DNA of 64,000 nucleotides, taken from positions 768,001-832,000 of the forward strand of contig OZ241996.1 of NCBI GenBank assembly GCA_965204535.1, written 5' to 3'. The notes below the pieces were generated by a model, which saw only the letters and a program-made list of their open reading frames with translations, did no database searches and was not told the origin of the DNA. How positions within the stretch are numbered: position 1 is the first letter of the stretch; every line of letters begins with the position of its first letter. Below are positions 12,791 to 53,084 of the stretch, one piece after another. The DNA is from a bacterium. Its GTDB lineage: Bacteria > UBA8248. The position numbers were made by a program, and so were the translations under genes.

Positions 12791-13091
12791 GGGGTTGTTG
12801 AAGAAGCCCGAGGAGAGAGGAATCACTCCCCCCTTGAGGGGGAGTCGAAGAGCTAAGGGCGTAAGCCCGCAAGCGATTCGGTGGGGGGTATAATCCGGAA
12901 TGGCGATAAAACGCATTTTACCCCCCACCGAGTCAGCCTTCGCACAAACCGCTCGGCTTCCTCGACTCCCCCTCAAGGGGGGAGTGAATTTCACCTCTCT
13001 TTGGGTAGGAATGACCCTCAAGGAGGGGTGTTTCTCATGATTCTTGTCGGTCGCGTCGAACCCTGATTCATCGGGATTTTTCAACAACCCC
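12791..13091. mobile_element. MITE-like element with IS1182-type ends carrying paired palindromes
   Basis: Ends GGGGTTGTTGAAGAA / TTTTTCAACAACCCC; internal inverted pair TCACTCCCCCCTTGAGGGGGAGTCGA ... TCGACTCCCCCTCAAGGGGGGAGTGA. Confidence 0.75.
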
Positions 13092-13137
13092 AATCGCCCG
13101 CCTCATATTTTGAGAGAGCAATCAGAGTCCGGCCGTA

Positions 13138-13821
13138 TTACAACTTCTCCAGAATGATGACGCGGCGCTCATCCGTCCAGCGGCACGCGAAGCCGAAATG
13201 CTCCTGAATCCACGCGAAACTCTCGGGCCGATAGAAGCAAAGGTGGGTGAAGTCGCGCCTGTAGTGCCAGTTATTGGCGAATAAGGCCTCGTCCCAGAAT
13301 GCCGTCATGACGCCCAGGAGTCCGCCCGATTTCAAGTTTTCATAAATCCGCCCGATTTCTTCTCTCGGATGCCTCAGATGCTCGAAGGTCTCGCTCGCGG
13401 CGATGAAATCGAACGGGCCGTCCGGCATCTCCGGGAAGAAATACGGATCGTAGGGCAGGCACTCGAAGCCTTCCGCCCGGAGCAGCTCACACAAGACGAG
13501 GCGTCCGTCGGCCGAAGGTCCCGCGCCGAAATCAAGCCCCCGCGCGCCCCGGGGGAGCATCCTCGTCAAGGGCTCGCTCAACTGCTTTAGAAAGGAGACG
13601 TAGCCCGCATCGGAAGCGGAATTGCGGTGCTGTTCGTATCTCTCTTTCTCGACCTGGGGCGCGGGCCAGAACCCGGGCGGTACGAAAACGAGGCGGCAGA
13701 CGGGACACTGAAAATAATCCCTCCCATCGGCGTGAAGATAGAGCACAGCCTCGCCCGACCCGCATAGGGGGCAGATTTCATACTTCTCATCCGGCGAGTG
13801 TTCTGGTCGGGTACCGGCCAT
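13138..13821 (-). CDS. Class I SAM-dependent methyltransferase with N-terminal Zn ribbon
   Basis: CPLC...CPVC, LDFGAG, YDPYF, ETFEHL, WHYRRDFTH. Confidence 0.88.
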   Translation of the reverse strand: MAGTRPEHSPDEKYEICPLCGSGEAVLYLHADGRDYFQCPVCRLVFVPPGFWPAPQVEKERYEQHRNSASDAGYVSFLKQLSEPLTRMLPRGARGLDFGAGPSADGRLVLCELLRAEGFECLPYDPYFFPEMPDGPFDFIAASETFEHLRHPREEIGRIYENLKSGGLLGVMTAFWDEALFANNWHYRRDFTHLCFYRPESFAWIQEHFGFACRWTDERRVIILEKL

Positions 13822-14036
13822 TCAGATAGCCCATCCTGGGGTGGGGGCGTTTTGCAGGGATCAAACACATCGGGAAAAGTGTAATCTTTATGTATGCCCT
13901 CAACAACGGGGTTGATGAAAAAGCCCCCTCCCCAGGGGATAAAGGCAACCCCCCTACCCCCCTTGTCAGGGGGGCAAGAAAAAACAAAAGCACCTCTACC
14001 GGCGGCGGGCGCCGCCTTTTCATACCCCCCTGACAA

Positions 14037-15549
14037 GGGGCTGTTGAAAAACCCTGTTTTGAAGCAGGGGGTATGGCGGCTCACGCGGCTTGGGATAGGA
14101 AGCCCAATCGGCGCGTGAGGCCGCGATATGCGCGCAGACGGCGTCTCCGGGCGGCCCAGGCCCTCCACAGAGCGAATATATCCGCCGCAAAAGCGGCGGC
14201 CAGCCGCTTGAGGTTCACCGCAGTCGCCGTCAGGTAGGCCTGGATCCTCATGTTCGCAAGGCCCCGGCGCACCGCCCGCCCCAGTCCGTGCCGACTCTTC
14301 GCTTCGCCGTGGTAGCCCTCCGAACGCGACATGTGGCGGCGCCACAGCCGGCCCTCCTCCTCCCCCCGGCGCGCGTGCCGCCGGCGCGCGCGCAACAGCG
14401 CCGGATATTCATGCGGAATCAGCACCGTCCTGCTCGTGTGCGACTTGGGCAGACAATCCGACCTCAGCGCGCAGCCCGCGCAATCGCGCGTCCTCGAACC
14501 ATAGTAGCGCCCCCGCTCCGTCTCCTTCCGGGGACGCAGCGTCTTGCCGCCCGGACACTTCACCACCTTGTGCCGCTCGTCGTAGCGGAACAACTGCAGC
14601 GGAACACGGCTCTGGGAAGGCTCCTTCTTCGCCGGTATCAGCGCATCAACACCCCGCCGCTCCAATCCCGCATACACCTTCGAGTACGCATAACCACTAT
14701 CCGCCGTCACCACCGCGGGCGCGCGACCCGTGAGCTCGCAAACCGCATCCAACTGCGGCTCCATCATCTCCCGCTCGTTCAACGTCCCCGCCGTCACCTC
14801 TACGTCGAGGACAACGCCCCGCTCGTCGTCCACCACCGCGTGGTGCTTGTAGCTCGGCTCGAACCCCGCCCGAGCGCTCTTGCGCGCCAGGCGCGCGTCG
14901 GGGTCCGTACGGCTCACCGGACCCGAACCCCCGCCGCCCTTCTTCCCCGCCTCATCCGCCGAGTCGTTCTCCCGCACCACCTTCTCCGCGTGGCGCGCCG
15001 CCAGACTCTCCCAACTCACGTCCGCGCGTATCAAAGACGCGTCCATGTGAACCACTTCCCCCTTCGCCACCTGCGCCTCCAGGCACGCCTGAACCGTGCG
15101 GCGCAATATTTCCTTGAACCGCGCCTCCCCCCACCGCTGGCGAATCCGCGTCAGGCTCGAATGATCCGGCAACTCCTCGTGCAGCTCGTAACCGATGAAC
15201 CACCGGATCGCCAGGTTCACCTGCGCCTCGCGAAGCAGATGCCGGTCGTGCACGTGGCCCAGCAGAAGACCCGCCAGCATCAACCGCACCACCACTTCCG
15301 GGTCGATCCCCGGTCGACCGTTGTCCGCGCAATAGCACTCCGCCACCTCCTCGCGAAGCCAACTCAAATCCAGTACGCGGTTCACCCGGAACAATATGTA
15401 ATCTTCGGGAATCAACTGCTCCAGCGAACCGGCCACGAACAATTCCATCTGCCCGCGCCTCTTGCGGTCCAACATCGGGGAATCTCCCATCTCGGGCGAG
15501 GGGGGATAACTCCATACGATCACAAAACCAGGGGTTTTTCAACAGGCCC
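14037..15549 (-). mobile_element. IS1182-family insertion sequence
   Basis: TIRs GGGGCTGTTGAAAAACCC / GGGTTTTTCAACAGGCCC; imperfect 5-bp flanks GACAA/GTCAA; one transposase. Confidence 0.88.
14081..15475 (-). CDS. IS1182-family DDE transposase
   Basis: GRPGIDP, PDHSSL, MDASLIRA, TDPDA, ADSGY, C-terminal CPGG / CAGCALR..C module. Confidence 0.92.
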   Translation of the reverse strand: MLDRKRRGQMELFVAGSLEQLIPEDYILFRVNRVLDLSWLREEVAECYCADNGRPGIDPEVVVRLMLAGLLLGHVHDRHLLREAQVNLAIRWFIGYELHEELPDHSSLTRIRQRWGEARFKEILRRTVQACLEAQVAKGEVVHMDASLIRADVSWESLAARHAEKVVRENDSADEAGKKGGGGSGPVSRTDPDARLARKSARAGFEPSYKHHAVVDDERGVVLDVEVTAGTLNEREMMEPQLDAVCELTGRAPAVVTADSGYAYSKVYAGLERRGVDALIPAKKEPSQSRVPLQLFRYDERHKVVKCPGGKTLRPRKETERGRYYGSRTRDCAGCALRSDCLPKSHTSRTVLIPHEYPALLRARRRHARRGEEEGRLWRRHMSRSEGYHGEAKSRHGLGRAVRRGLANMRIQAYLTATAVNLKRLAAAFAADIFALWRAWAARRRRLRAYRGLTRRLGFLSQAA

Positions 15550-15791
15550 GTCAAGGGGGGGTAGGGGGGGTTGGTTTTCAAGGCGAGAGCCTGCGCCGCC
15601 GCTACTCAGGATGAGGCGGAGAGGGGTTTTTCGACAAACCCACTACGAAATACGTTCCACCATGCTCTCGTCTCGGGTCCAAACATCGCCCCTCATATTG
15701 ACACCCCATGCGCCATCCCCTAGCTTGGGGCGCTTTTACGGGAACGGCGCGAACTATCTCACCATGATTCATCATCGAAAAGGATTTTGCC

Positions 15792-16556
15792 TTGATACTC
15801 GATAAATTTCGTCTGGACGGAAAGGCGGCCCTGGTGACGGGCGCGGGTACGGGCCTGGGCGAGGCGATGGCGCTGGGTCTGGCCGAAGCCGGCGCGGACG
15901 TGGCTGTTTTGGGCAGGAGAGAGAACCTGGTGGTCGAAACGGCTCGCCGGGTCGAGGCCCTGGGGCGCCGCGCGCTGGTGGTCGCGGCGGACGTGACGAA
16001 GGCGGACGAGGTGGCCCGCGCCGTGGAGCGGACCGAAGAGGCCCTGGGCGGTATCGGCATCCTGATAAACGGAGCGGGCGTGATAAACGCCGACCCGAGC
16101 GTGGACGTGAGCCCGGAGGATTTTCGCTTTGTGGTCGACGTGAACCTGACGGGCGCTTTTCTGTGCGCGCAGGCCGCAGGACGCGGGATGCTCGAGCGAG
16201 GTTCCGGCAGCATCGTGAGCATCGGCACGTTCCTGGGCGAACGGGGCCACCGGCCCGCGCGCGCGGCCTATAACGCGAGCAAATACGGCGTGGTGGGCCT
16301 GACGAAATCGCTCGCGATGGAGTGGGGCGGGCGCGGCGTTCGCGTGAACTGCATCTGCCCGGGGGTGCACAGAACGCCCATGCTCGCACCCGCGCTCACA
16401 GACCCTGAAGTGGAAGCGGGTTTAAACGAGAGGACGATACTCGGCCGTGTGGGCGAGCCCGAAGATATCGTGGGTCTCGCGGTTTTTCTGGCGTCCGACG
16501 CATCGGCCTACATCACGGGCGAGAGCATATTCGAAGACGGGGGAGGGTGGCTGTAA
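15792..16556 (+). CDS. SDR family oxidoreductase
   Basis: TGAGTGLG, NGAG, YNASK, VRVNCICPG. Confidence 0.92.
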   Translation: MILDKFRLDGKAALVTGAGTGLGEAMALGLAEAGADVAVLGRRENLVVETARRVEALGRRALVVAADVTKADEVARAVERTEEALGGIGILINGAGVINADPSVDVSPEDFRFVVDVNLTGAFLCAQAAGRGMLERGSGSIVSIGTFLGERGHRPARAAYNASKYGVVGLTKSLAMEWGGRGVRVNCICPGVHRTPMLAPALTDPEVEAGLNERTILGRVGEPEDIVGLAVFLASDASAYITGESIFEDGGGWL

Positions 16557-16644
16557 GGCCCGGTAAAAAAGATGGCGGATGGCGTGCGGCGGCAAGGCGG
16601 AGGCTTCCATCGGGGCGTCGCCGCAATGGATACGGAGAGAGAGA

Positions 16645-17361
16645 ATGCCGGAATTACAAGCGATCATTTTTGATTTCGACGGCACCATCGCGGACAGCGA
16701 GCCGCTGCATCTGGCGGCGTTCCAGGCGGTGCTCTCGGAAGAGCTGGACCTGGACCTGACCGAAGAGGAATACGCCGAGCGCTACCTCGCCTTCGACGAC
16801 AGGCTCCTGTTCACGCACGTGCTGAACGATCGCGGCGTGGGCGTAGAGCCCGACCGCTTCGAGCAGCTCCTGGAGTTGAAAGAGGCGCGCTACCAGGAAA
16901 TCGCGCTGGCGCCCCAGATTCTCCCCGGTGCCGCCGAGATGATCCGCGCCGCCGCCGCGCACTGGCCCCTCGCCATTGCGAGCGGCGCCCTGGGCCACGA
17001 GGTGCGTCCCGTGCTGGAGCGGGTGGGCTTGATCGATTGTTTCCCGATCATCGTGACGGCGGAGATGGTGAGCCGGGGAAAGCCGGACCCGGAGAGTTTC
17101 CTGACGGCGCTTGCGCGGATAAATGAGGGCCGCGCCGAACTTATTCCGCCGGGGTCGTGCCTCGTGGTGGAGGATTCCGTCGCGGGCGTGCGCTCGGGAG
17201 GTGCCGCCGGGATGCGGACGCTCGCGGTGACGACGAGCTACCCCGCCGATAAGCTGACCGAGGCCGACCGCGTCGTGGATTCACTGGAGGAGACCGTCGA
17301 CCCCGGCGGTCTGGCCGCCTGGTTCGCCGCCCTGCCGTCTGCCTCGTCTCGGAGTGGATAG
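16645..17361 (+). CDS. HAD family phosphatase
   Basis: FDFDGT, KPDP, VEDS..G motifs. Confidence 0.9.
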   Translation: MPELQAIIFDFDGTIADSEPLHLAAFQAVLSEELDLDLTEEEYAERYLAFDDRLLFTHVLNDRGVGVEPDRFEQLLELKEARYQEIALAPQILPGAAEMIRAAAAHWPLAIASGALGHEVRPVLERVGLIDCFPIIVTAEMVSRGKPDPESFLTALARINEGRAELIPPGSCLVVEDSVAGVRSGGAAGMRTLAVTTSYPADKLTEADRVVDSLEETVDPGGLAAWFAALPSASSRSG

Positions 17362-17370
17362 GAGAGGGAT

Positions 17371-17898
17371 ATGCCCATATTAAAGGTCGCGCGCATGGGC
17401 CACCCCGTCCTGCGCCGGAAGGCGAGCGAGGTCGAGCCCGAGTATCTTGGGGGGCCCGAACTTGCGGAAATCATCGAGGACATGTTCGAGACGATGGTGG
17501 AATACGCGGGCGTGGGTCTGGCGGCACCCCAGGTGCACTTGGGGATCAGGCTGTTCGTCATGCAATTTGACCCCGACGATGAGGAAACGCTGCGTTTTGC
17601 CGTGAACCCGAAGCTCACGGCCTTAGGCGACGAGGGCTGGGAGGAATGGGAGGGTTGTCTCAGCATCCCCGACATACATGGCCGCGTGCCGCGCAACGAC
17701 CGGGTGCGTCTGGAAGCGCAGGACCTGGAGGGACGCGTCTATGCCGAGGAGTTGGAGGGTTTCGCCGCGCGCGTCTGCCAGCATGAATACGATCATCTCG
17801 ACGGATTGATGTTTATCGACAGGATGCGCGATTTCACGACGCTTTGTTTCGGGGAGGAATACCGCAGGTATCACGCTCCGCGGCCCAAGGAGGATTGA
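17371..17898 (+). CDS. def: Peptide deformylase
   Basis: GVGLAAPQ, EGCLS, QHEYDHLDG. Confidence 0.97.
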   Translation: MPILKVARMGHPVLRRKASEVEPEYLGGPELAEIIEDMFETMVEYAGVGLAAPQVHLGIRLFVMQFDPDDEETLRFAVNPKLTALGDEGWEEWEGCLSIPDIHGRVPRNDRVRLEAQDLEGRVYAEELEGFAARVCQHEYDHLDGLMFIDRMRDFTTLCFGEEYRRYHAPRPKED

Positions 17899-17989
17899 GG
17901 GGCAGGAGGGGCGGTCTACTCGATCTCTCCCATATGGTCTGGTCGATACGGCGAGTCATAGAATGCAGGGGAAACGGAGGAATCAAAAC

Positions 17990-18568
17990 ATGACAATCAT
18001 CCTGGCTACAGGCACCCGCCGCCGTTCAGGATTTGGCGGCCGTCTCGGTTATTTGGCGCTTCTCCTGCTGTTGGGTCTCCCGGCAGCGGCGTTTGCTGCG
18101 CCGCCCTACCTCAAGACTCCGGCGCCGGTCATCTACCTGGCGGACAATCTGGACGAGCAGGATGGGCTTGGGTGGTGTATCGATACCCGCGGACGAGGAT
18201 TCAGCGATAGGCTGCATACGCACTCGTGCAAGCCGAGGGGCGGCGACGTGCAGTTCCGCTACGATGAGGTGGCGCGGCGGATAGCTTCGGCCACGTTTTC
18301 CGGGAAGTGCGCGGCGCTCCTGGCGCCGGCAGCCGCCGGGGTAACGCTTGGGCTGTTGGATTGCGCGAAGAATGCCACAGGCCAGGTCTTCGATTACGAC
18401 GACGCGGCGATGGAGTTCCGCCCCGGTGCCGACCGGTCGCTTTGCCTCGTCGCGGGCGCCGCAAGCAGGTCGGCCGGGCCGTACATGTCGCGCGACCTCG
18501 CGCTCGCGCCGTGCGCATCCACCGGGGCGAAGTTCAAGCAGTGGCGCATCAAGAAAGCCCGGCCCTGA
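17990..18568 (+). CDS. Secreted ricin-B/beta-trefoil lectin-like protein
   Basis: Signal peptide; paired Cys with CID / C..Q.F / KQW repeats; GGAGG RBS; start 17963 or 17990. Confidence 0.65.
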   Translation: MTIILATGTRRRSGFGGRLGYLALLLLLGLPAAAFAAPPYLKTPAPVIYLADNLDEQDGLGWCIDTRGRGFSDRLHTHSCKPRGGDVQFRYDEVARRIASATFSGKCAALLAPAAAGVTLGLLDCAKNATGQVFDYDDAAMEFRPGADRSLCLVAGAASRSAGPYMSRDLALAPCASTGAKFKQWRIKKARP

Positions 18569-18609
18569 GTGGTTGAGGCGAAAGTCAAAGAGGCCATCCG
18601 TCTGCTTTC

Positions 18610-18639
18610 TTGACAATTCATGATGTTTCATGATAGATT
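18610..18639 (+). promoter_or_regulatory. Sigma70-like promoter with tandem TCATGA palindromes (probable TA operator)
   Basis: TTGACA-18 nt-TAGATT; spacer has TTCATGA twice; directly upstream of the antitoxin. Confidence 0.6.
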
Positions 18640-18662
18640 TCGCCTAAGAATGGAGGTGCCCT

Positions 18663-18893
18663 ATGGCGACCCTAGAGCGAGAGAAGTTCGCAACCCAGGT
18701 GAATTCGGAAATTCTGGCCGCCGTCCGCAGCCTTGCGCGGAGCGAGGGGCGGCAGCTTCAGACCCTGGTGGATGAGGCTCTGGCCGACCTGATCGAGAAG
18801 CGCAAGGGAAGCAGGCCGCGCCCCCACGTCATGGCGGTCTATCAGGCGAGTCACGAGAGATACGCGCCGCTTTACAAAAAACTCGCTGAATGA
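18663..18893 (+). CDS. Putative RHH-type antitoxin
   Basis: 76 aa, beta-helix-helix pattern, ATGA overlap with Doc toxin. Confidence 0.8.
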   Translation: MATLEREKFATQVNSEILAAVRSLARSEGRQLQTLVDEALADLIEKRKGSRPRPHVMAVYQASHERYAPLYKKLAE

Positions 18894-19273: not shown

Positions 19274-19381
19274 TTGCGACCACTCAGGCGGGCCGAGCTT
19301 CTTCGCGGATATGCGGGATTTCACTTCTCTTTGCTTCGGTGAGAAATACCGGGGGTATCACGCCCTGCGCGACCCAAGGAA
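19263..19381 (+). repeat. Degenerate copy of def 3' end (D2)
   Basis: Translates LRNDCDHSGGPSFFADMRDFTSLCFGEKYRGYHA versus Def CQHEYDHLDGLMFIDRMRDFTTLCFGEEYRRYHA. Confidence 0.85.
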
Positions 19382-19626
19382 GAGGCCGAGTAGAGCACCC
19401 GGTCCACGCTCGGGCTCACACGATGTCTAGGCACAGGGCTTGTCCAAACCCGGACTTCACGCCATCACATCAAGGGAAAGGTCCGTACACAATACTAGGG
19501 TGCAAGAGCAGCATGAAGGGGGCGACGCTAATATGGCTATCACAGGAACGGCTCGTCCATAAGATCGCCGTCGCCCACGGGCGCGGATTCAAGACTTGCG
19601 ATCAACTGGTTTATCTTCACGACTTG

Positions 19627-34137: not shown

Positions 34138-34357
34138 CGTCTTCTCCAGAGAAAATGTTCTCCGCAGGCGGCCGGCCGTTCGCTCGAAGGCCGAGGTTTT
34201 TTGGCCAACGCGCCGCAAAGCGGCTTTATACAGCAAGTTAAGGGCGAGGAAAAGATGAGGATTTCGTGATTTTGTGATTCCACTTATGGAGCCGATCATG
34301 GAGGGATGAAACTTTACTCCTCGCTTGCAGAGCGTGAACTAACCACTCCCCCCTCAA

Positions 34358-34526
34358 GGGGCTGTTGAAAAAGTCCTGATGAACGAGGGTTTTGCGCGAC
34401 CGGGGAGGGGCGGTTTTGTAGGGGCCGCATACATGCGGCCCTTGTAGTGGACAAAAAAATCAGGGTCGCATATATGCGACCCCTACACACAAACAAATTT
34501 TCTTCTCGGGGTTTATCAACAAGCCC
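34358..34526. mobile_element. MITE with IS1182-type TIRs carrying a GTAG-REP pair
   Basis: GGGGCTGTTGAAAAA / TTTATCAACAAGCCC; perfect 5-bp duplication CTCAA; internal GTAGGGGCCGCATACATGCGGCCC ... GGGTCGCATATATGCGACCCCTAC. Confidence 0.85.
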
Positions 34527-34608
34527 CTCAAGGGAGGAGTGATTTATTTCCTTTCGGACTTTTTCAACAACCCCGTTTCGCGCAGCTTGCGGTTTTGGTA
34601 GATTTCCG

Positions 34609-36867: not shown

Positions 36868-37312
36868 GTAGGGACAGGCCCCCGTGCCTATCCGAGGTTG
36901 CTCCTCCTCACTCCGAATTCACCACCGCCGTCATTCCGGCGAAAGCCGGAATCCATTCTAAAGCAGAATGACAATGCTCCGGCTTTTCATCTCCCCGTCA
37001 TTGGGGGGAAGCAATCAGGAAATAAAAAACAAAGGCAAAACAAATGGATTCCGGCTTTCGCCGGAATGACGATCAAAAGCACATTTGCCCGTAGGGGCGA
37101 CCCCCTGTGGATGCCCACATCGTATATGTTCATCCCCGTGGCTACCTTCGCAGGGACAGGCACGGGGGCCTGTCCCTACAAACCCTCTATTTACAAGGCC
37201 CTGTGCGGGGTTTTTCAACACCCCAAATGCGACCCTTACAATACGGGTGGCGACCTCTCCGCCCGGCATCTTCGATTCAAGGACTGCAGGGGCGGTTCGC
37301 GAACCGCCCCTA
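36868..37312. repeat. Mosaic cluster of REP-like palindromes (GTAG and CGTC types) with an orphan TIR
   Basis: CGTCATTCCGGCGAAAGCCGGAATCCA (36929-36955) and its inverse (37045-37071); GTAGGGACAGGCCCCCGTG and inverse; GGGGCGGTTCGCGAACCGCCCCTAC; GGGGTTTTTCAACACCCC near 37207. Confidence 0.8.
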
Positions 37313-42200: not shown

Positions 42201-42442
42201 AGGGGCAATGAAAAGTCCCCCTTCTCAGAGGATCAAGGCAACCCCCCCTACCCCCCCTTAACAGGGGGGCAAGAAAAAACAAAAGCTCCTCTATCGGCGG
42301 CGGGTGTCGCCTTTTCACACCCCCCTTGTTAGGGGGGCTTTTCTATAACCTCCTCGTCGGGGGGGCATCGCCTTTTTTTACCCCCCTGACAAGGGGGGGT
42401 AGGGGGGGGTGCTCCTATGACAAAGGCTTTTTCAACAACCCC
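42201..42442. mobile_element. MITE-like element, IS-free homologue of 13908-15641
   Basis: Ends AGGGGCAATGAAAAG / TTTTTCAACAACCCC; shares AAGGCAACCCCCC..AGGGGGGCAAGAAAAAACAAAAGC..; retains intact CCCCCCTGACAAGGGGGGG. Confidence 0.7.
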
Positions 42443-44638: not shown

Positions 44639-47600
44639 TTACTGATTCGGCCCGATTCTTCGGATTTGGATTTTCTCCTTATCTAAATCTATTTTTGCAT
44701 AGGTTACTGAATTGGGTACTACATCAATTGGAACATCAAGTCGCCCGACGATCCGAAAATCTGGTGTTGACAGCCATGTGTCTTCCCCAACCGCGTTGGG
44801 TTCGACACGAAGCATGGCAATATCTGATGGAATGCCACCATTCACTTCGGTAAAATTAATCATGACACTCACATCGCACCACTTCTTGTCCTTACTACTC
44901 AGAATATCGTCCCTGAAACGTCGCCATAAGGATACTGTTGACTTGTTTGGCCAATTATCTCGTAACGACAACTCAGCAACGATTTCACTGGCTAGCCATT
45001 GACGCATGTCGCTACCGTCAAAAAAGCTAGGGTCGAGTTCGCTCACCACATCGAGTGCGGCCTGCCGGGAAGTAAGGCCAGCGCGTACTAGCAATGACAT
45101 GCGGTAGTCTGGCAATCCTGTATCAAGGCAAGCCGCCGCCGCACCGGGGATAGTTCCGATTTCTGGTTCCCAGCCGCCAGCAAGACGTCGCGAACGCACC
45201 GCCTCTAGCGCCCAGACAAGCCGATATGTAAACGTATTTTCAATCATTCCGACACGGTTTGCACCTATGGCGCTTAGTGGTGCGCCCTCAATCCAATCGC
45301 GCAAGACCCCTTGCCAATTGCCGACGAGAGCGTTTTGGGTGTCCGGAATAAATGGCCGAATAGTTAGTAGCTTTTCCGCTAGTTGAATGAGTGTCGCATG
45401 TAAAGTATCAACATCGGCTTGTAATGCGGCGAGGTCGGCGCGATCCAGAACCTCTGCTAAAAAATCTGCCATCTCGTCTACCTGAATACCGGTTTCCAAA
45501 CCGACACCCATGGCGAAATGTCCACGACGCTGTTGAGCAGTCGTGTTGTTCCATATAAGACGTGCCCGTGTTTTCAGAACAACCATTTGCATCTTTTTGA
45601 TATTGGGGTCTAAGCGATCCAACTGCCTTGACCACAAAGACCCTGACAAAGCTTCTTCAAGGAGTGTGGGTAAATCTTCAGTATCTGCATCTAGTGCCTC
45701 AATTAAACCGAAAACGATCGCATCTAGTTTTGGGATTAATTCTTCAAGTGGATCGCCGTCGATTTCTTCTGGTTCTTCCAGCCATGCTTCGCGGGCGTTG
45801 GCTAGATACTCGTACCCATCCTCATTTCGGGCAACACCACGCTTGGCGAGGCGCTTTATGATTTGATCGATTACAATCAGAAAACCACTTTTCAGCGACC
45901 GTTCCTTCACATTATGCACAAGTCGACGCCAATCTATCCTGCGTTTGCTAAATTTGTCTTTCATCACATGTAGAATCAGCCCTTCGGTATCCACAAATGC
46001 GCGGCCAACACGCCCGGCAACATTTGCGAATTCATCGCTCGAAATCTGGTAGCCTGAGCGAGTCAGATAGGGCGCTAGTAACACAGCCGCATTAAGGTTT
46101 AATCCCTGCGCGAGGGTTGGGGACGCCACTGTCACTTTAATAGCGCCCGAGGTAAGCAGACGCTCAACCTCGCGAAGAAAAGGACTTGGCAATTTCCCGT
46201 GATGCACCGCGACTCCAAAATTTAAACATTTAACTGCAGGATGATCAGGTCCAAGCCATTCAGCGCCAATGGCCAATGCCGTCTTGATGGCGGACTGTTC
46301 CTCCAGTAAGGGTGGGAGATAGCCTTTTTTGACCAATGCTGTGGCGCGTTTGCCATAGCCTTCCACCCAATTAGCCTGAGTGATGAAAATCAAACAGCTT
46401 TTTCCCTCCTTGGCGAAGCGCCACGCGCCCATTAAAGTGACATCTTTGAGGTCTCGTGGTAAGGCTTTTTGATCCCTGCCGCGAGGAAGGAGTTCTTCGA
46501 TGAAGCGGGGCACAAAAGGACCGTTGTTTTTAAGATCGTAGTTTAACCTTCCTGCACTACTACGCCATTCGAGCGTGCCAAAGCGTTGACGCGTCGGTCG
46601 CCAATCGGATCTGATAGGATCGCCTTCGACATCTGAGCGAATCCACGAGGTCATATCGTCAAGGTCTTTTCCTGTTGGGAGAACTGCGGAAAGGCAAACA
46701 ATGCGCCGTTCGGGTGCATCCCTCCGGCACAAGAGTCGCTGAACGAGGATTTCATAATGGATTTCTCGTTCTCCAGGTCCAATAAGGTGACCTTCATCCA
46801 AAATGATAAGGCCAATATCGTCGATAACGGTCGGATCATTTCGGAGGGCAAAATCGAGTTTTTCAGGTGTTGAGACGACGATTCGGTGATTACGGAGAGC
46901 ATCCGCATCGCCTGCTGACAAGCCGCTTTTCCCATAAAGTGAGGATACAGTCGCACCGTGCGGGGCAAAACATGTACGAAAAGATCGCTCAGTTTGTGCC
47001 GACAAGGCGCGAAGAGGCGTTACGATTAGTACGCGTTTGCCCATTGACAGAGAAGTAAGTGTTGCTAGTTCCGCGATACGTGTTTTTCCTGCGCTGGTGG
47101 GCAACGTGACAACAAGATCATCTTCGGGATCGACCGCGCGCCGGGCCGCATCAATCTGTGACGGCCAGAGTTCTACCTGCGCCGTATCGCGCGCCAAAAG
47201 TGAAGCAATGAAAATGGTTCTATGTTGACTGTAAACATAATTGTCGCCCTCTGGAGGATTTGCAGGAAGCACCTCATGCAATGATTGATCCCAGAGATCG
47301 CCCAATAACTGCCCTGTTAGTCGAATTACCCACCAGAGCGATGAAAGTCCAGATTCGGCGGCTAATTTAAGAGCTGTCTTGAGTATTTGATGAGTAACTG
47401 TGGTATAGCCTGAATCTCCTGTCTGCAAAGCGAACTCGTAATACGCTAAAGCTCGACAGACTGCACTAATCAGGATGAGAGCAATTTCAGCGTCCGTATC
47501 GCCGCCAGGGTTTTGTAATCGCTCCAAGATAGCGCTATCCTGGTGTTGAGGATCACGAAGCCAATCTTGCGCCACATCTCGCACCCCATCCAAATCGCGT

Positions 47601-48046
47601 AGCAAAAGCTTTACGAGACAAACCTCAGCGGTATTCAGGTTTTGGTCTGTCACATCCACCGGAGAAAAAAGGGAATAAGCAATCGCTGCATAGCTCCCAA
47701 GATGATAGGCTGCTGCTGCCACTACACGGTGAAATCCGCGCCGAAAATCGGCAGGTTCGCCATTTCTTACTAGTGCTTCAAGGACCCTACCGGACACATA
47801 AAACGCTTTTCGAGCGATTGGGTGGCCACGTTCCAGTGAATTTAAGGCAAGTCCCGCATCCAGCAAAGCGAATCCGTATTCTGCGAGATCGGCGTCCAAC
47901 GTAGCGCGGAATGAGGGTGCATGCTCTTGAAGCTTACCGTCACGTCGGATGATCGACCAAGCCTCACCAGTATCAACAATGCGATCCCTTCCGTCGCTTG
48001 CTAACGAGCCTTCCAGAAAAGCAACTAATTCCTCAACTGTCTCCAA
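44639..48046 (-). CDS. hamB: Hachiman defence Ski2-like helicase HamB
   Basis: PTSAGKT, TPEK, DEGH, LSA, HHG, TLAQGLN, N.AGR.GR; overlaps upstream DUF1837-like gene; low GC; TTG start after GGAGG. Confidence 0.85.
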   Translation of the reverse strand: METVEELVAFLEGSLASDGRDRIVDTGEAWSIIRRDGKLQEHAPSFRATLDADLAEYGFALLDAGLALNSLERGHPIARKAFYVSGRVLEALVRNGEPADFRRGFHRVVAAAAYHLGSYAAIAYSLFSPVDVTDQNLNTAEVCLVKLLLRDLDGVRDVAQDWLRDPQHQDSAILERLQNPGGDTDAEIALILISAVCRALAYYEFALQTGDSGYTTVTHQILKTALKLAAESGLSSLWWVIRLTGQLLGDLWDQSLHEVLPANPPEGDNYVYSQHRTIFIASLLARDTAQVELWPSQIDAARRAVDPEDDLVVTLPTSAGKTRIAELATLTSLSMGKRVLIVTPLRALSAQTERSFRTCFAPHGATVSSLYGKSGLSAGDADALRNHRIVVSTPEKLDFALRNDPTVIDDIGLIILDEGHLIGPGEREIHYEILVQRLLCRRDAPERRIVCLSAVLPTGKDLDDMTSWIRSDVEGDPIRSDWRPTRQRFGTLEWRSSAGRLNYDLKNNGPFVPRFIEELLPRGRDQKALPRDLKDVTLMGAWRFAKEGKSCLIFITQANWVEGYGKRATALVKKGYLPPLLEEQSAIKTALAIGAEWLGPDHPAVKCLNFGVAVHHGKLPSPFLREVERLLTSGAIKVTVASPTLAQGLNLNAAVLLAPYLTRSGYQISSDEFANVAGRVGRAFVDTEGLILHVMKDKFSKRRIDWRRLVHNVKERSLKSGFLIVIDQIIKRLAKRGVARNEDGYEYLANAREAWLEEPEEIDGDPLEELIPKLDAIVFGLIEALDADTEDLPTLLEEALSGSLWSRQLDRLDPNIKKMQMVVLKTRARLIWNNTTAQQRRGHFAMGVGLETGIQVDEMADFLAEVLDRADLAALQADVDTLHATLIQLAEKLLTIRPFIPDTQNALVGNWQGVLRDWIEGAPLSAIGANRVGMIENTFTYRLVWALEAVRSRRLAGGWEPEIGTIPGAAAACLDTGLPDYRMSLLVRAGLTSRQAALDVVSELDPSFFDGSDMRQWLASEIVAELSLRDNWPNKSTVSLWRRFRDDILSSKDKKWCDVSVMINFTEVNGGIPSDIAMLRVEPNAVGEDTWLSTPDFRIVGRLDVPIDVVPNSVTYAKIDLDKEKIQIRRIGPNQ

Positions 48047-48815
48047 ACGATGACACCTCCTCAAAGACCGTGAATACGAACTCCTTGTGATCCTTTATTC
48101 TTAGGTTGACGGAATGTTGTGTGCGACCGTCATCAGCGGCATCGAGGTCTTCTCTAATAGTTTTCGTTGCAGGGTTACCGCTCAGGGTAAACATAAGATG
48201 AGTTAGCCGACTATTTGGGGTTGTACGAGTCGTTCCTTCTTTGATGAGATCAATTCCCATCTCTTTCATATTGGAATCCTGACTTTCGATAAGCCGACGA
48301 GCAATGAAAATTAATGAGTGTGCGGATGGTCGCCCATAGTCAGTCTCTAGTGCTTTTCTAGCTTTTTTCACAGTTACATTAGTTAGATTCCTAGCGCTTT
48401 TCGCTTCACCCTTCAGAAGTTTTATTTGATTTTTTTTGTCATAAGCCACAGCGATAACGTCCACACCGCGCATCGGCATATCTCGGTGATCCTTGTACCT
48501 AAGTTTTTTCACAGGAACTTTGAAATCGAGTTGTTCTTCAATGAATTCTGCGGCGAGAATCTCGCCTAGTTCGCCTGATTTGATATTTCGCTTTTGGGGT
48601 AGGAGAGTTCTAATAAGTTCTGCTACTTGGGAACATTCTAATTCAGCGAGAAGTCGTGCGATTTCTTCATGAGCGATGTAGTGGTCAAGGATTCGATCAG
48701 TCAATTCTTCGAATATAGCTTCTCGTCCACCCTCACGTTCGCTTAGGTGCCACAGCGTTTTCTTCTTTGCTTTAGTAGTTTTGCAATGACACCAGGTTTT
48801 GTACAGGCTAGACAT
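48033..48815 (-). CDS. hamA: Hachiman defence nuclease HamA (DUF1837-like)
   Basis: SGELGEIL, G.DV, GEAK (PD-(D/E)xK); directly upstream of the helicase. Confidence 0.85.
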   Translation of the reverse strand: MSSLYKTWCHCKTTKAKKKTLWHLSEREGGREAIFEELTDRILDHYIAHEEIARLLAELECSQVAELIRTLLPQKRNIKSGELGEILAAEFIEEQLDFKVPVKKLRYKDHRDMPMRGVDVIAVAYDKKNQIKLLKGEAKSARNLTNVTVKKARKALETDYGRPSAHSLIFIARRLIESQDSNMKEMGIDLIKEGTTRTTPNSRLTHLMFTLSGNPATKTIREDLDAADDGRTQHSVNLRIKDHKEFVFTVFEEVSSFGDS

Positions 48816-48987
48816 TTGTTCTCGAAAATCTCCTGTTTTGTGGATTATACTTGGGTGTACTTAACTAATAGGCATTACTATGGATATTTTTTTCAACCGT
48901 TTTTGTTCCTTAGTGAAAGCAAAGCGGTCTTCGTAGCAGCCCCTCTACACCTCACCACCCGTGCATGCCCCTGCTCGCTGAATTCAT

Positions 48988-49419
48988 CTAGAGCGAAATC
49001 TCTCTCCCCTGCGGCAAGAATTTATCCCCCACCAACGCCACCCCCTCCATCTGCGCTGCTCGCCTGTCGAAGGTGTAGAGGGGATGTGCGCCGCTTCGGT
49101 TCGCGGCGGCTGCGATCATGAGGTCGGAAAAGCCGGCCCCGCCGCGCCGGTAATGGAAGGCGGCGCGGGCCACGTCGTCCGCCGCCTCGATTTCGAGTTC
49201 TTCGGTAGCTACGAGTTCTTCCAGCACCTCTGCGATTCGTTCTCGGGAAAACCGATAGGTTCGGTCAAGCACCCAGACGAGTTCGACAGTCACCTCGCGG
49301 CAAATAAAGCCGGGCCGCTCGGCAGTCAGCCCTGCTATCAGACCTTGGGCCGCTTCTGTCTGGGACGCATCATCCGCGACCAGACATCGAACTAGGACGT
49401 TCGTGTCGAGCGCGATCAC
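48988..49419 (-). CDS. vapC: VapC/PIN domain toxin
   Basis: ALDTNVLVR, E..WVL, FSD.MI, TFD. Confidence 0.9.
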   Translation of the reverse strand: MIALDTNVLVRCLVADDASQTEAAQGLIAGLTAERPGFICREVTVELVWVLDRTYRFSRERIAEVLEELVATEELEIEAADDVARAAFHYRRGGAGFSDLMIAAAANRSGAHPLYTFDRRAAQMEGVALVGDKFLPQGREISL

Positions 49420-49649
49420 TCCTCACTCGCCCCCTCAGCGATAGCGCGCTCCATATCTTCGAGCGTTTTTGGAGGGCCTTCGTATTTGAGCATGCCGAAC
49501 AGCCGGGCGATGGGCCGCATCGGGATGATGCGCACCTCATCGCCCAGGATGATATAGCGCACGCGATCGCCCGGCCGCACGCCGAGGGCTTCGCGTACCG
49601 GCTTGGGCAGCGTCGTCTGGCCCTTTGAGGTAATCGTGGATTCGACCAT
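49416..49649 (-). CDS. AbrB/MazE-type antitoxin
   Basis: STITSKGQTTLPK.VRE.LG..PGD; GTGA overlap with vapC. Confidence 0.9.
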   Translation of the reverse strand: MVESTITSKGQTTLPKPVREALGVRPGDRVRYIILGDEVRIIPMRPIARLFGMLKYEGPPKTLEDMERAIAEGASEE

Positions 49650-49795
49650 GTGGAACCCCCCCCTGTTCCTTACTTAATATAATAATGCCTTACTTTTGCA
49701 GGTTAAGCAAGGACAAAATTACCGTGTTTATACGGAATTTAGCCGGTTTATGAAATCCATATAATTCTCCCAAGAAACGCATAACTCCTTTTCAC

Positions 49796-49825
49796 TTGAC
49801 GGGGGAAACGCAGTTCCCCTATCTT
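49796..49825 (+). promoter_or_regulatory. Sigma70-like promoter with palindromic spacer upstream of XRE gene
   Basis: TTGACG-18 nt-TATCTT; GGGGAA...TTCCCC inside. Confidence 0.45.
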
Positions 49826-49876
49826 TTATGATGATTTTAACCAACATATAACTCTTATATGATGGATATTTTCAAC

Positions 49877-50218
49877 ATGATGAATGAAAGCAGGATTACA
49901 CGGACGCCGCCGGCCGCCGTCGAAGACGCCATCCGGCGTCTGGGTCGCAACATACGCACGGCGCGCCTGCGCCGGAGGCTGCGCATCGAGGATGTGGCGA
50001 ACCGCATCGGCGCTTCGCGCTTCACGGTCGCGGACCTCGAGAAGGGCAAGCCGGGCGCGTCGATGGCCGCCTACGCGGGCGCGCTGTGGGCGCTCGGCCT
50101 GCTGGAGGACATGAGCGAGGTGGCCGACCCCGACAGGGATGAAGAGGGCAAGACGCTCGAAAGCGCCAGAAGCCCGAAGTCCGCGCCGCGCCGCAGGAGG
50201 CTCGACAATGACTTCTGA
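49877..50218 (+). CDS. XRE-family HTH protein (HipB-like antitoxin)
   Basis: LGRNIR.AR.RR, VA.RIG.SR.TV..LEKG.P; overlaps hipA fragment. Confidence 0.85.
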   Translation: MMNESRITRTPPAAVEDAIRRLGRNIRTARLRRRLRIEDVANRIGASRFTVADLEKGKPGASMAAYAGALWALGLLEDMSEVADPDRDEEGKTLESARSPKSAPRRRRLDNDF

Positions 50219-50333
50219 GGGCGAGTGCTTCGTCTATATCGTCCTCCCCGGAGAGTGCGAGTTCGTGACGGCGGGCCGCTTTCGGGTTGAGAAGACGCGA
50301 GACGGTGCGGCCATCGGGCGGTTTTCCAATTGA
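50208..50333 (+). pseudogene. Truncated HipA-like toxin (N-terminal 41 codons)
   Basis: MTSEGECFVYIVLPG..EFVTAGRF resembles HipA N-termini; stops exactly where GC drops. Confidence 0.7.
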
Positions 50334-50391
50334 GCATATATCCTCCCTGTGCTATCTACTCGGCGACTAACAAATAAATGGGGAGGGAGCC

Positions 50392-52293
50392 ATGGACGCT
50401 CTTGTTCGTTCTCTTGATTCAGTTCTGCGTGAAAATCATCAATGGGTTGTTCCTGTTTACCAGAGACACTATGAGTGGGAAACGAAAGAAGACAGACAAC
50501 TCCCGAAATTCTGGGATGATCTGAAAGATAAGACGATTGAGCGTTTGGAGAAGAGAAACCCTTTCCCACACTATTTCGGAGCTATTATCTTTTCCGAACC
50601 GCCCAATCAGACTTTCGGCACTGTCCGCCAGCGACTCTTAGTTGATGGTCAGCAAAGAATCACGACATTCCAACTAACGCTAGCAGCCATCAGAGAAGTA
50701 GCTCGCGACTACGAGGTCTCCCGCCTATTGGATGCAACTGATGCCTATCTTTATAACAAAGAGAGCCCTGGTATGGTCGAGCCGGATCGGGAACGCTTCA
50801 AACTTTGGCCCTCAAGCTATGATCGTTCACTTTATCAAAAGATCGTTGAAAATACCCCGGATAACCTCAGTATTATCTATGAGACGATTTACTTCTATAA
50901 AAACGGTAGGTTGATTAAAGGCCGTGCGCCCAACTCGCTTCGCGCTTTCTGGTACCTTTATGAAGAGATTAAAGCATTTGTCCAGGAGCGAGGGGAGGAT
51001 GAAGAAAGCCCTGAACAGGTGCTCGACGCGCTAATCGCCGGTTTCTTAGACGGTTTTCGAGTTGTCCTGATCCAACTTGATCAACATGATGACGCGCAAG
51101 AAATTTTCGCCTCGCTTAATGGATTGGGAAAACCACTATCCCCATTCGATCTTATCCGGAACGATGTTTTTCATAGAGCGCAAAAAACAGGCGAAGACAC
51201 TGAAAGGCTTTTTGAAGAGCAGTGGAAGAAATTTGAAGATGACTTTTGGAATGAGGAAGTGCGGCAGGGGCGATTGAAACGCGCGAGAGCTAACCATTTG
51301 ATAGCGCATGCTGTTGTTGCCGAGACTGCGCGGGAAGTTAATGTCGGCAAGATCGCAACTGAATACCAGCATTACGCACAAGATCAAAAATTTAAGACTG
51401 TTGCTGAAGAACTCGATGTGCTGCTCAATCATGCCGCTACATATCGTGCCATGGAGGAAAGGGATGAAAACGTGGTCTTTGCGAAAATTGCGAATGTCCT
51501 CCGAATTTGGGATATGTCAACTTTTCACCCATTGATTCTGTGGGTCAATGCGCAACCGCTTGAAGACGAAGATAAAGTTAGACTTTTCAGCGTTATTGAA
51601 AGTTATATTGTTCGACGTGAAATCTGCGGCCTCACAACCAAGAACTATAACAAAGTAGTTACCGGAATGATTAGGAATACTTCGGAGCAGGACGATTTAG
51701 TGTTGGTCTTTTTTGACTATCTTTCCAGCTTGACTGGGGATGCTGCGAGAATGCCAACGGACGCCGAGGTCGAAGAGGCGTTTGCGTCTCGAGAGGTGTA
51801 TGGTCGCTGGGCACACGGTGGGACTCCTTCTCGACGCCTTAAGTACATTCTGCGTGAAATCGAATATGCTAAGCATAATAAGTTTCACGAGACAATGATA
51901 TCTTCGGAGAATTTAGAGATTGAGCATGTTATGCCACAATCCTGGGCCGAGCACTGGCCGTTGCCCAATGGTCTAACTGCTCCATGCGAATCTACATGGG
52001 AAGCTGCCTACAATGGGCATAGCCTTGATGACGAAACAAAAACGCTTATGGATGAACGTCAGCAGGCTGTCGGTACCTTGGGAAATCTCACTTTGTTAAC
52101 AAAACCATTAAATGCGGGTATTAGGAACGCGGCTTGGGAAATTAAACGCGAACGTTTAGCTGACGATTCCCTGCTACTTCTTAATCGCGAAATTGCTTCA
52201 AATGAAATGTGGGATGAAGCGGCGATAGAGCGAAGAGCCGATGACTTAGCTAAGGTGGCGAACAGTATTTGGAAAGCGCAAGACATTCAATAG
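50392..52293 (+). CDS. GmrSD-like DUF262-DUF1524 protein (putative modification-dependent nuclease)
   Basis: PVYQRHYEW, VDGQQR.TT, F..LN..G, EHVMPQ, GNLTLL...N; low GC. Confidence 0.88.
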   Translation: MDALVRSLDSVLRENHQWVVPVYQRHYEWETKEDRQLPKFWDDLKDKTIERLEKRNPFPHYFGAIIFSEPPNQTFGTVRQRLLVDGQQRITTFQLTLAAIREVARDYEVSRLLDATDAYLYNKESPGMVEPDRERFKLWPSSYDRSLYQKIVENTPDNLSIIYETIYFYKNGRLIKGRAPNSLRAFWYLYEEIKAFVQERGEDEESPEQVLDALIAGFLDGFRVVLIQLDQHDDAQEIFASLNGLGKPLSPFDLIRNDVFHRAQKTGEDTERLFEEQWKKFEDDFWNEEVRQGRLKRARANHLIAHAVVAETAREVNVGKIATEYQHYAQDQKFKTVAEELDVLLNHAATYRAMEERDENVVFAKIANVLRIWDMSTFHPLILWVNAQPLEDEDKVRLFSVIESYIVRREICGLTTKNYNKVVTGMIRNTSEQDDLVLVFFDYLSSLTGDAARMPTDAEVEEAFASREVYGRWAHGGTPSRRLKYILREIEYAKHNKFHETMISSENLEIEHVMPQSWAEHWPLPNGLTAPCESTWEAAYNGHSLDDETKTLMDERQQAVGTLGNLTLLTKPLNAGIRNAAWEIKRERLADDSLLLLNREIASNEMWDEAAIERRADDLAKVANSIWKAQDIQ

Positions 52294-52326
52294 TGTTTTC
52301 GCGCTAGTTCCTTCAGCCTTACCTCC

Positions 52327-52445
52327 TCAACACCCCATCACCCGCGCATGACCTTCCTCGCCGTATTCGAGCAGGTGCCCGTCGCGCGTAACCAGCGTGT
52401 ATCCAAACCCCCGCGTCGTGGCGAGGAGAATGCGGGCAGCGCGGG
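52327..52445 (-). pseudogene. C-terminal remnant of a second VapC toxin
   Basis: PAARILLATTRGFGYTLVTRD..LLEY resembles the PIN DPxDRxxxAT...LVTRD tail; no start. Confidence 0.65.
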
Positions 52446-52763
52446 CTATCGCTCGGCGTCCCAATCCGCTTCGGCGGGTGAAGTCAGGTCCGTATCCTTC
52501 GGGACCGTCACCGTGCCCTTCAGCGCGCCGTAGGTGCGTGAGAAACAACCTGTGGTCGCGCGCTCCATCTCTTCGAGCGTTTTCGGGGGGCCTTCGTATT
52601 TGAGCATGCCGAACAGCCGGGCGAGGGGTCGCATCGGGATGATGCGCACCTCATCGCCGAAGATGATATAGCGCACGCGGTCGCCGGGCCGCACGCCGAG
52701 GGCTTCGCGCACCGGCTTGGGCAGCGTCGTCCGGCCCTTCGAGGTAATCGTGGATTCGAACAT
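52446..52763 (-). CDS. Chimeric AbrB-type antitoxin copy
   Basis: First ~68 aa near-identical to 49416-49649; tail YGALKGTVTV..DLT.P...W resembles a different VapB. Confidence 0.65.
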   Translation of the reverse strand: MFESTITSKGRTTLPKPVREALGVRPGDRVRYIIFGDEVRIIPMRPLARLFGMLKYEGPPKTLEEMERATTGCFSRTYGALKGTVTVPKDTDLTSPAEADWDAER

Positions 52764-52893
52764 GGTGCAACCCTCCTGTTCCTCGCTTTATAGAATAATG
52801 TATTACTTTCTAATTTCAAGCAAAGATAAGACTTGCGCGTTCATATTAAATTTACCCCCTTGTCGGGGCAGTAACCCCCCAACCCCCCTTATC

Positions 52894-53084
52894 AGGGCTG
52901 TTGAAAAAGTCCTGCAATGCCGGAATGATGGCAATGGGATTCCGCCTTGGCGAAGGGAGTGTAGGGGCCGCATATATGCGGCCCGTCGTTGGAAGGCAAA
53001 AAAGCCGGGTCGCATATATGTCGGACATATATGTCCGACCTACACACAAGAGCTCCGCCCGATCAAGGGTTTTTCAACAACCCC
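52894..53084. mobile_element. MITE with IS1182-type TIRs carrying a GTAG-REP pair
   Basis: AGGGCTGTTGAAAAAGTCC / TTTTTCAACAACCCC; TATC duplication inside CCCCCCTTATCAGGGGGG; same REP cargo as 34358-34526. Confidence 0.85.

What the first reader, a model, noticed from the sequence alone, without database searches (positions are those of the whole stretch)
12791..53084. IS1182-ended MITE family that carries REP palindromes and inserts into other palindromes
Seen: at least five short elements (12791-13091, 13908-15641, 34358-34526, 42201-42442, 52894-53084) and two orphan ends (near 34556-34574 and 37207) share the TIR core GGGG(C/T)TGTTGAAAAA with the autonomous IS. Their interiors are not transposase remnants but three unrelated palindrome families. 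Two have clean duplications (CTCAA; TATC) at the loop of C-run/G-run hairpins. Inference: a DDE transposase spreads REP-like repeats that are usually attributed to RAYT/HUH enzymes, and some cargo hairpins are the preferred target, so the system seeds its own landing sites.
Basis: partly seen in the sequence, partly recalled or inferred. Interest (0 to 1): 0.7.

Follow-up and report, generated by a model that had tools for sequence, protein, structure and literature searches.

The report
Jumping shells that swap hairpin cargo
Hundreds of short, gene-less DNA elements in this bacterium have the ends of an IS1182 transposon and are filled with small hairpin repeats, and in close relatives the same end often sits at the same spot next to a different hairpin, likely because new elements land inside old ones and recombination then replaces the contents.

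Summary
Largely confirmed, and bigger than reported. The genome holds 647 copies of the 19-bp end (control 4), 26 IS1182 copies and 198 short end-pairs; 184 of 198 contain REP-type hairpins of five families. All 26 IS copies sit at C-run/G-run hairpins, 23 inside short elements. Exact duplications flank only 41 of 194 short pairs, far above chance; three clean empty alleles were found. The main new result: against a relative with 96% identical flanks, 25 of 49 ends kept at the same base have a different interior starting at the end's inner edge, while the end keeps its local variants. Ends stay, cargo turns over; nested insertion followed by collapse is my preferred mechanism, ectopic gene conversion the rival. 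No transposition was tested.

The parts
12791..13091 (.). Short element: two convergent IS-type ends around a C-run/G-run hairpin doublet (family F1, 12824-12986); no exact duplication
   Evidence: same left junction holds other cargo in G002 and G014; the doublet matches the two flanks of a DUF559 gene in L282
13908..15641 (.). Outer short element (about 216 bp without the IS): F2 hairpin doublet plus part of a CCTC-type (F5) hairpin at about 15602-15620
   Evidence: G012 has the 215-bp element without the IS
14037..15549 (-). Complete 1513-bp IS1182-family element inserted at the loop of an F2 hairpin; flanking 5-mers differ at one base
   Evidence: one of 26 copies in the genome
14081..15475 (-). 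IS1182-family DDE transposase gene, 464 aa from the ATG
   Evidence: Pfam DUF772 + DDE_Tnp_1_6; NCBIfam NF033551 342.9 bits, cut-off 270
34358..34526 (.). 169-bp short element with a GTAG-type doublet (34418-34486), 5-bp duplication CTCAA at an F1 hairpin loop; member of a 7-copy subfamily
34556..34574 (-). Right end of an older element that encloses 34358-34526; its left end near 34240-34260 is decayed
   Evidence: same junction in G002, G011, G012, G014, G016 with three different inner sequences, absent in G010
36868..37225 (.). GTAG and CGTC repeat mosaic (CGTC doublet 36929-37071) closed by a right end at 37207-37225; left end lost
   Evidence: G002, G012, G016 have the same right junction with an F2 doublet and an intact left end
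42202..42442 (.). Short element with F2 hairpins, decayed left end, inner decayed right end at 42334-42352, intact right end 42424-42442
   Evidence: right end has a different inner sequence in G002
52894..53084 (.). 191-bp short element with a GTAG-type doublet, duplication TATC at an F2 hairpin loop; member of a 4-copy subfamily (94% mean identity)

Best explanation
These are short non-coding elements bounded by the 19-bp ends of a resident IS1182 and filled with hairpin repeats of five families; the transposase likely moves them, and their contents are likely replaced in place when a new element lands inside an old one and recombination between the two like-facing ends deletes the stretch between them. 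Shown: shared ends, hairpin-loop targets, nesting, a minority with duplications, three empty alleles, different interiors behind the same end in relatives. Inferred steps: (1) the repeats came with their own enzyme cassettes (RAYT for GTAG, Ssn-like GIY-YIG for CGTC, DUF559 for the C-run/G-run hairpins); (2) IS ends captured them, possibly by deletions joining the C-run at the inner edge of an end to the C-run of a hairpin; (3) the transposase copies or moves such units to new sites, mostly hairpin loops; (4) because the cargo, and often the first bases inside the end, form C-run/loop/G-run targets, later insertions fall inside earlier ones; (5) deletion between like-facing ends or shared repeats collapses the nest, leaving the old outer junction with new contents.
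For: Ends: 647 versus 4 in control. Targets: 26 of 26 IS copies have a C-run next to both ends, 19 of 26 an exact duplication, 23 of 26 an inward-facing short end within 450 bp. Duplications at non-C-run sites: 20 of 101 versus 1.1 expected. Empty alleles: 3 of 73. Swaps: 25 different, 4 partly different, 20 same of 49 matched ends against G002; 8, 1 and 6 of 15 against G011. The resident end is kept: base 5 agrees in 21 of 25 swaps against about 0.47 by chance (p 1.5e-4), 7 shared rare variants versus 1.07 expected, identity falls to background at bases 16-17. Intermediates: 106 like-facing neighbours within 450 bp; the inner short end is at a C-run hairpin in 43 of 74 cases versus 117 of 559 for other short ends. 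At C1:501281 G000 has the nested form and G002 the collapsed form at the same flank. 180 of 633 short ends begin inside with C-run/loop/G-run versus 56 expected.
Against: Only 1 of 25 swaps shows the nested intermediate in the other genome; in 21 the other interior is absent from the locus and 3 look inverted. One-sided swaps with no leftover inner end (C1:467061) need two deletions under this model but one event under gene conversion. 121 of 194 short pairs have no duplication and 35 of 84 ends found no matching junction in G002, which this model does not explain without extra deletions. The search for in-place footprints of capture was negative (9 versus 6.9 expected). Whether turnover is higher at loci with ends than at repeat loci without them is unresolved (15 of 47 versus 1 of 14 with no shared family, p 0.09). 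No transposition assay exists.
Confidence: 0.55

Rival explanations
1. The elements moved by transposition, but interiors are swapped by ectopic gene conversion: a nick or break at a hairpin (possibly from the RAYT, GIY-YIG or DUF559 enzyme, or cruciform cleavage) is repaired from another copy, with the shared end as the outermost homology.
For: One-sided swaps that rejoin inside a shared repeat (C1:467061, C2:1152225); 21 of 25 swaps leave no trace of the other interior; several IS copies have flanks from two different hairpins; G007 builds variable CGTC/GTAG mosaics without the ends.
Against: 15-19 bp is short for RecA-type pairing (own knowledge); nested forms are abundant and one nested/collapsed pair was seen.
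Confidence: 0.25
2. The transposase itself exchanges interiors by a targeted reaction between two like ends followed by branch migration, as IS26 does in targeted conservative cointegration.
For: Breakpoints fall in the ends; precedent in another family (PMC7885326, abstract read).
Against: That abstract says extended identity at the reacting end is needed; here only about 19 bp are shared. Ends with inner mutations are also swapped. Nothing comparable was found for IS1182 in my searches.
Confidence: 0.08
3. The ends are dead remains; repeats entered them through their own enzymes and are not moved by the DDE transposase.
For: Each repeat class has a candidate enzyme locus; 16-47% of copies per family lie more than 500 bp from any end; G007 spreads CGTC without ends.
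Against: Same-size, 84-95% identical end-to-end subfamilies at unrelated sites with their own duplications; clean empty alleles lacking ends and repeat together.
Confidence: 0.07
4. Different elements inserted independently at the same base in each lineage (hot spots), some with target deletion as described for IS1272.
For: Strong target preference; IS1272 deletes part of its hairpin target and leaves no duplication (PMC4923244, passages), which could explain pairs without duplication.
Against: 20 of 25 swaps are at non-C-run flanks, and the end keeps locus-specific variants, which a fresh insertion would not.
Confidence: 0.05

Closest known systems
IS1272 / TnSha1 (IS1182 family; PMC4923244, passages read)
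   Same: IS1182-family element that targets hairpins and can mobilise foreign DNA with an IS-like second end.
   Different: IS1272 deletes part of the stem and makes no duplication; here 19 of 26 IS copies duplicate 4-6 bp at the loop, the targets are dispersed repeats, and the passengers are repeats, not a gene.
Bacterial MITEs such as Correia elements (PMC3184786, PMC10969869, PMC3898611, passages read)
   Same: Short, non-coding, ends shared with a resident IS, duplications, intergenic.
   Different: Interior is not one conserved or IS-derived sequence: 168 end-adjacent groups, five repeat families, and it is replaced at fixed ends.
REPs as IS targets (IS1397, IS621 and others; PMC3184786, passage read)
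   Same: IS inserts into repeated palindromes.
   Different: Here the targets are themselves carried between the IS's own ends.
REPIN/RAYT (PMC3116915, PMC3733652, passages read)
   Same: Inverted GTAG doublets and a GTAG-flanked RAYT gene are present.
   Different: The doublets are often wrapped in DDE-type ends with duplications.
Neisserial intergenic mosaic elements, dRS3 + RS (PMC3898611, passages read) and NTS/SsnA (PMC11893778, passages read)
   Same: Conserved short terminal repeats around varied cores, proposed recombination sites; CGTC repeats flanking a small GIY-YIG gene.
   Different: The fixed boundary here is a transposon end with an active-looking transposase, and CGTC repeats are cargo, not boundary.
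BoxC / PIT / TM triplex motifs (PMC4666352, passages read)
   Same: The F2 repeat has two C-runs and a G-run and marks unstable loci.
   Different: It does not match the printed TMECO consensus by eye; triplex formation not tested; that paper found no link to mobile elements.

Membership tests
IS1182 (autonomous element) | Transposase scores above the family cut-off | tested here: met
   NF033551 342.9 bits versus 270
IS1182 (autonomous element) | Single ORF between terminal inverted repeats, dispersed copies | tested here: met
   26 copies, 24 intact at 1510-1516 bp
IS1182 (autonomous element) | Short duplication and/or palindromic target | tested here: met
   19 of 26 exact duplications; 17 of 17 rebuilt sites fold with the insertion point enclosed by a stem
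IS1182 (autonomous element) | DDE catalytic triad | tested here: inconclusive
   candidate residues seen in three motifs; assignment rests on recalled motifs, no structure or alignment made
MITE | Short, non-coding, ends shared with a resident IS | tested here: met
   198 pairs, median 257 bp; 11 of 198 overlap a crude gene call by more than half
MITE | Target duplication | tested here: inconclusive
   41 exact and 28 near-exact of 194, far above null, but 121 have none
MITE | Empty alleles in relatives | tested here: met
   3 of 73 short pairs
MITE | Multi-copy families of one size | tested here: met
   subfamilies of 3-7 copies, 81-95% mean identity; most end combinations are unique (125 combinations among 197 pairs)
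MITE of the internal-deletion type | Interior derived from the parent IS | tested here: not met
   only one group of 6 ends clearly IS-like
MITE | Mobilised in trans by the transposase | not testable with these tools
   needs an assay; ends occur in 16 of 22 genus relatives and the 6 without ends lack the transposase, but kin are not independent
REPIN | Inverted GTAG doublet with a cognate RAYT in the genome | tested here: met
   RAYT scores 63.3 bits, under the NF047646 cut-off of 80
REPIN | Unit ends at the REPs, no outer transposon ends | tested here: not met
   the composite unit ends in IS1182 ends; its cargo alone is REPIN-like
Ssn/NTS system (cargo F4) | Small GIY-YIG gene flanked by CGTC repeats | tested here: met
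   15 of 15 loci examined, 2 fragment loci left out
Ssn/NTS system (cargo F4) | Member of cd10448 and cleaves its single-stranded repeat | not testable with these tools
   no CDD library; no NCBIfam hit
BoxC/PIT/TM triplex motif (cargo F2) | Fits the motif definition and forms a triplex | not tested
   only compared by eye with the consensus in PMC4666352
NIME | Boundaries are dRS3 repeats | tested here: not met
   boundaries are IS ends

The most novel reading that the evidence does not exclude
A self-renewing cassette system: IS1182 ends act as fixed sockets at hundreds of intergenic sites, the transposase delivers repeat cassettes taken from three unrelated enzyme-repeat partnerships (RAYT-GTAG, GIY-YIG-CGTC, DUF559-C/G-run), those cassettes supply its next targets, and the sockets are refilled many times faster than neighbouring DNA mutates, perhaps by a transposase-driven exchange at the ends.
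Probability: 0.3. Interest if true: 0.75.

Novelty: new variant of a known kind. Interest (0 to 1): 0.58.

Why it matters
It gives a second, DDE-based route by which REP-type repeats spread, including CGTC repeats, for which a 2013 survey found no dedicated transposase (PMC3733652), and it shows that a MITE 'family' can be a set of long-lived ends with short-lived contents, which would mislead dating and classification by interior sequence. Half of the conserved ends changed contents while flanking genes diverged by 4%, so intergenic hairpins (possible terminators or RNA stabilisers; untested) are being reshuffled genome-wide. The 19-bp ends and defined hairpin targets make the system easy to test in a laboratory strain.

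Tried and rejected
Interior inversion as the cause of swaps: 3 of 25 only. Interiors as IS deletion derivatives: rejected for nearly all groups. In-place footprints of capture: 9 versus 6.9 expected, no support. Hairpin context at non-C-run duplicated sites: 15 of 20 versus 63 of 140 random non-coding sites, suggestive only. End-dependence of turnover: p 0.09, unresolved. Public run contigs as a test for empty or swapped alleles: contigs break in the repeats, and the joints listed are short and repeat-derived, so not used; runs with small shares that I did not lay were not used. A variant end in five end-free relatives: 0-3 matches each at 2 mismatches, like the control. Co-occurrence across the genus is not counted as proof because the end-free genomes are the more distant ones. 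The non-coding background comes from my own crude gene caller (77.6% coding), which misses AT-rich genes and inflates fold-enrichments. The comparison with relatives covers 1.68 of 4.39 Mb of G002 and 0.48 of 4.28 Mb of G011, so counts are samples. A review I recalled on IS families was not held. Earlier-finding look-up by place returned nothing.
Full report
Setting. The window is G000:C1:768001-832000 of a 4.56-Mb, 60% G+C genome in two contigs. A record that carries a 72% identical transposase (L194) is titled Nitrospinota bacterium, and runs labelled sponge metagenome that I laid hold related DNA (X1, X3), so the host is probably a sponge-associated Nitrospinota; this is inference.

Observation. 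The end motif matches 13 times in the window against 0.17 expected and 242, 503 and 678 times in the genome at 0, 1 and 2 mismatches. A 19-position profile finds 647 ends at score 16 (reversed-genome control 4) and 685 at score 14 (control 7). The end is quasi-palindromic: a G-run, an 11-base core, then a C-rich inner edge.

The autonomous element. ORF 14081-15475 is an IS1182-family transposase. There are 26 copies, two interrupted by another IS. All 26 have a C-run next to both ends, 19 have an exact 4-6 bp duplication, and 23 have an inward-facing short-element end within 450 bp. The targets are two hairpin families, F1 and F2. Seven copies have mismatched flanks, some made of two outer halves of an F1 doublet or of one F1 and one F2 half, which points to later recombination or target deletion. 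Copies in relatives mostly use the same targets, but the 75-76% identical variant in L196-L206 uses other repeats, so target choice has shifted within the genus.

The short elements. Convergent neighbours cluster at 150-500 bp. Nested pairing gives 198 short pairs (median 257 bp) and 241 unpaired ends. 184 of 198 contain at least one of five motif families: F1, F2, GTAG (F3), CGTC (F4), CCTC-type (F5). For eight of ten motif sets, 27-39% of all copies lie in these pairs, which make up 5% of my estimate of non-coding DNA (7-12-fold; the other two sets 2.0 and 4.7-fold); 430 motif hits lie inward of unpaired ends and 71 outward, though outward DNA is more often coding. By locus, 86 of 91 orthologous intergenic regions with an end in either genome contain a repeat, against 18 of 771 without. 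Of 194 pairs over 60 bp, 41 have an exact duplication, 28 a one-mismatch one, 4 an inverted one and 121 none; where neither flank is a C-run, 20 of 101 are exact against 1.1 expected. End-adjacent sequences fall into 168 groups, 100 of them single. Some left-right combinations recur at fixed size: 7 copies of about 170 bp with GTAG cargo (5 with 5-bp duplications, 89% mean identity), 6 of about 218 bp with F5 cargo (1 with a duplication), and others with F2 cargo. Three of 73 short pairs in compared loci have a clean empty allele in the other genome, among them C2:2843988-2844288 (F2 cargo) and C1:463126-463319 (F5 cargo). Movement of repeat cargo by the ends is therefore well supported, by inference.

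Cargo replacement at fixed ends. I compared 862 orthologous intergenic regions (of 3336 in G000) with 1.68 Mb of G002; flanks are 95.8% identical. In the 49 regions with ends in both genomes, 49 of 84 G000 ends have the same outer junction in G002; the interior is the same in 20, partly different in 4 and unrelated in 25, and 20 of those 25 are at non-C-run flanks. G011 (292 regions, 91.6%) gives 6 same, 1 partly, 8 different; 39 ends had no match. In swapped cases the end itself is largely inherited: base 5 agrees in 21 of 25 (p 1.5e-4 at an assumed 0.47), 7 of 27 rare variants are shared against 1.07 expected (13 of 21 at unswapped ends), and identity drops to background at bases 16-17. So the crossover lies within the end. 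The window shows it too: the left end at 12791 faces F1 in G000 and G011, GTAG in G014, GTAG plus CGTC in G002; the right end at 37225 faces CGTC/GTAG in G000 and G011 and an F2 doublet in G002, G012 and G016; G010, which lacks ends and transposase, has short repeat-free spacers at the five sites that could be compared.

Mechanism. 106 like-facing ends lie within 450 bp of each other; inner short ends sit at C-run hairpins in 43 of 74 cases against 117 of 559 for other short ends, and several lie only 24-28 bp inside an older end. 180 of 633 short ends begin inside with C-run/loop/G-run (56 expected), and the commonest such start matches the first hairpin of the F2 array beside the DUF559 gene, fused at its C-run. 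At C1:501281 G000 has end-spacer-end-cargo and G002 has end-cargo at the same flank. This favours nesting and collapse. Against it, 21 of 25 swaps keep no trace of the other interior, some one-sided swaps rejoin inside a shared repeat, and the footprint test for capture was null. Gene conversion remains a serious rival and both may operate.

Where the cargo comes from. One RAYT-like gene (C1:983506-984099) is flanked by GTAG repeats, one small GIY-YIG gene (C2:927520-927834) by CGTC doublets and one DUF559 gene (C2:1233578-1233967) by F2 doublets. CGTC motifs adjoin 15 of 15 GIY-YIG loci examined in the genus, as described for Ssn nucleases (PMC11893778). Of 10 stand-alone DUF559 loci in relatives, 6 have F1, 3 have F2 and 1 has neither (5 weak hits in long proteins left out); in L282 the gene lies between the two halves of the F1 doublet. 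Among 80 metagenome DUF559 loci a C5-loop-G5 hairpin lies upstream in 12, downstream in 13 and on both sides in 6 (0.1 expected), while only 1 has the IS end; most loci lack this particular hairpin. Across the genus the ends occur in 16 of 22 relatives, the transposase in 13, and F1 and F2 in the same 16 (F2 only 1-2 times in four of them); the 6 without ends have no transposase match. G007 has 109 CGTC and 11 GTAG matches and RAYT genes but no ends. The repeats thus have an existence of their own.

Literature. Searches for IS1182 with MITE and palindrome, REP/MITE/REPIN terms, IS1182 targets, DUF559 with palindromes, replaced MITE interiors, GIY-YIG with REP, nested MITE with gene conversion, Nitrospinota repeats and targeted exchange found no description of IS-ended elements whose REP cargo is replaced in place; the library omits most subscription papers. 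I read passages of PMC4923244, PMC3733652, PMC3184786, PMC11893778, PMC10969869, PMC3898611, PMC3116915 and PMC4666352 and the abstract of PMC7885326; no supplements. Hairpin targeting by IS1182 members and REPs as IS targets are known. Earlier notes of this scan describe REP-carrying nested MITEs in three other genomes and the DUF559-hairpin pairing in 48 findings; these are unchecked and not counted as support.

Verdict. A real IS1182-dependent family of short elements with foreign hairpin cargo, a new variant of known kinds. The in-place turnover of contents at fixed ends is shown by comparison; its mechanism and trans-mobilisation are inferred. Interest 0.58.

Noticed in passing
G000:C2:1233578-1233967; L281-L286, L289, L290, L293; L313-L392: Stand-alone DUF559 nuclease genes flanked by C-run/G-run hairpin doublets, in two clades matching F1 and F2; the F1 doublet looks like the cassette without its gene (L282).
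   Followed up: partly
G000:C2:927520-927834; L296-L310: Small GIY-YIG gene flanked by CGTC doublets, Ssn-like; several relatives' matches show one in-frame TGA in the tool's read-through, not examined.
   Followed up: partly
G000:C1:983506-984099 (L001, L207): RAYT-like gene with GTAG repeats on both sides and one inside the coding sequence; a short tandem array lies just downstream.
   Followed up: partly
G000:C1:743920-745236 and 14 further places: A second, distantly related IS (about 498-aa transposase, 25% identity, different ends, copies look identical); two copies interrupt the first IS at the same position.
   Followed up: no
L196-L206: A 75-76% identical variant of the IS inserts into other repeats than F1/F2, with 5-bp duplications: a target shift within one genus.
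   Followed up: partly
L133, L134, L156, L159, L160, L162-L165, L169, L185; G000:C2:2568977: IS copies with an extra A, or with a 5-mer typical of another hairpin family, at the upstream junction, as if a few bases of donor flank were carried along or converted.
   Followed up: no
window 44639-52293: AT-richer island with a helicase/ResIII-type gene (44639-48064) and a GmrSD-type restriction gene (50392-52293), not covered by contigs of runs X1 and X2.
   Followed up: no
G007 (L231-L260): Dense CGTC/GTAG mosaic clusters in a relative without the IS ends.
   Followed up: partly
window 42250-42420 versus G002 L033: In G002 another 1.4-kb IS-like element with different ends is inserted inside the F2 doublet of this element.
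   Followed up: no
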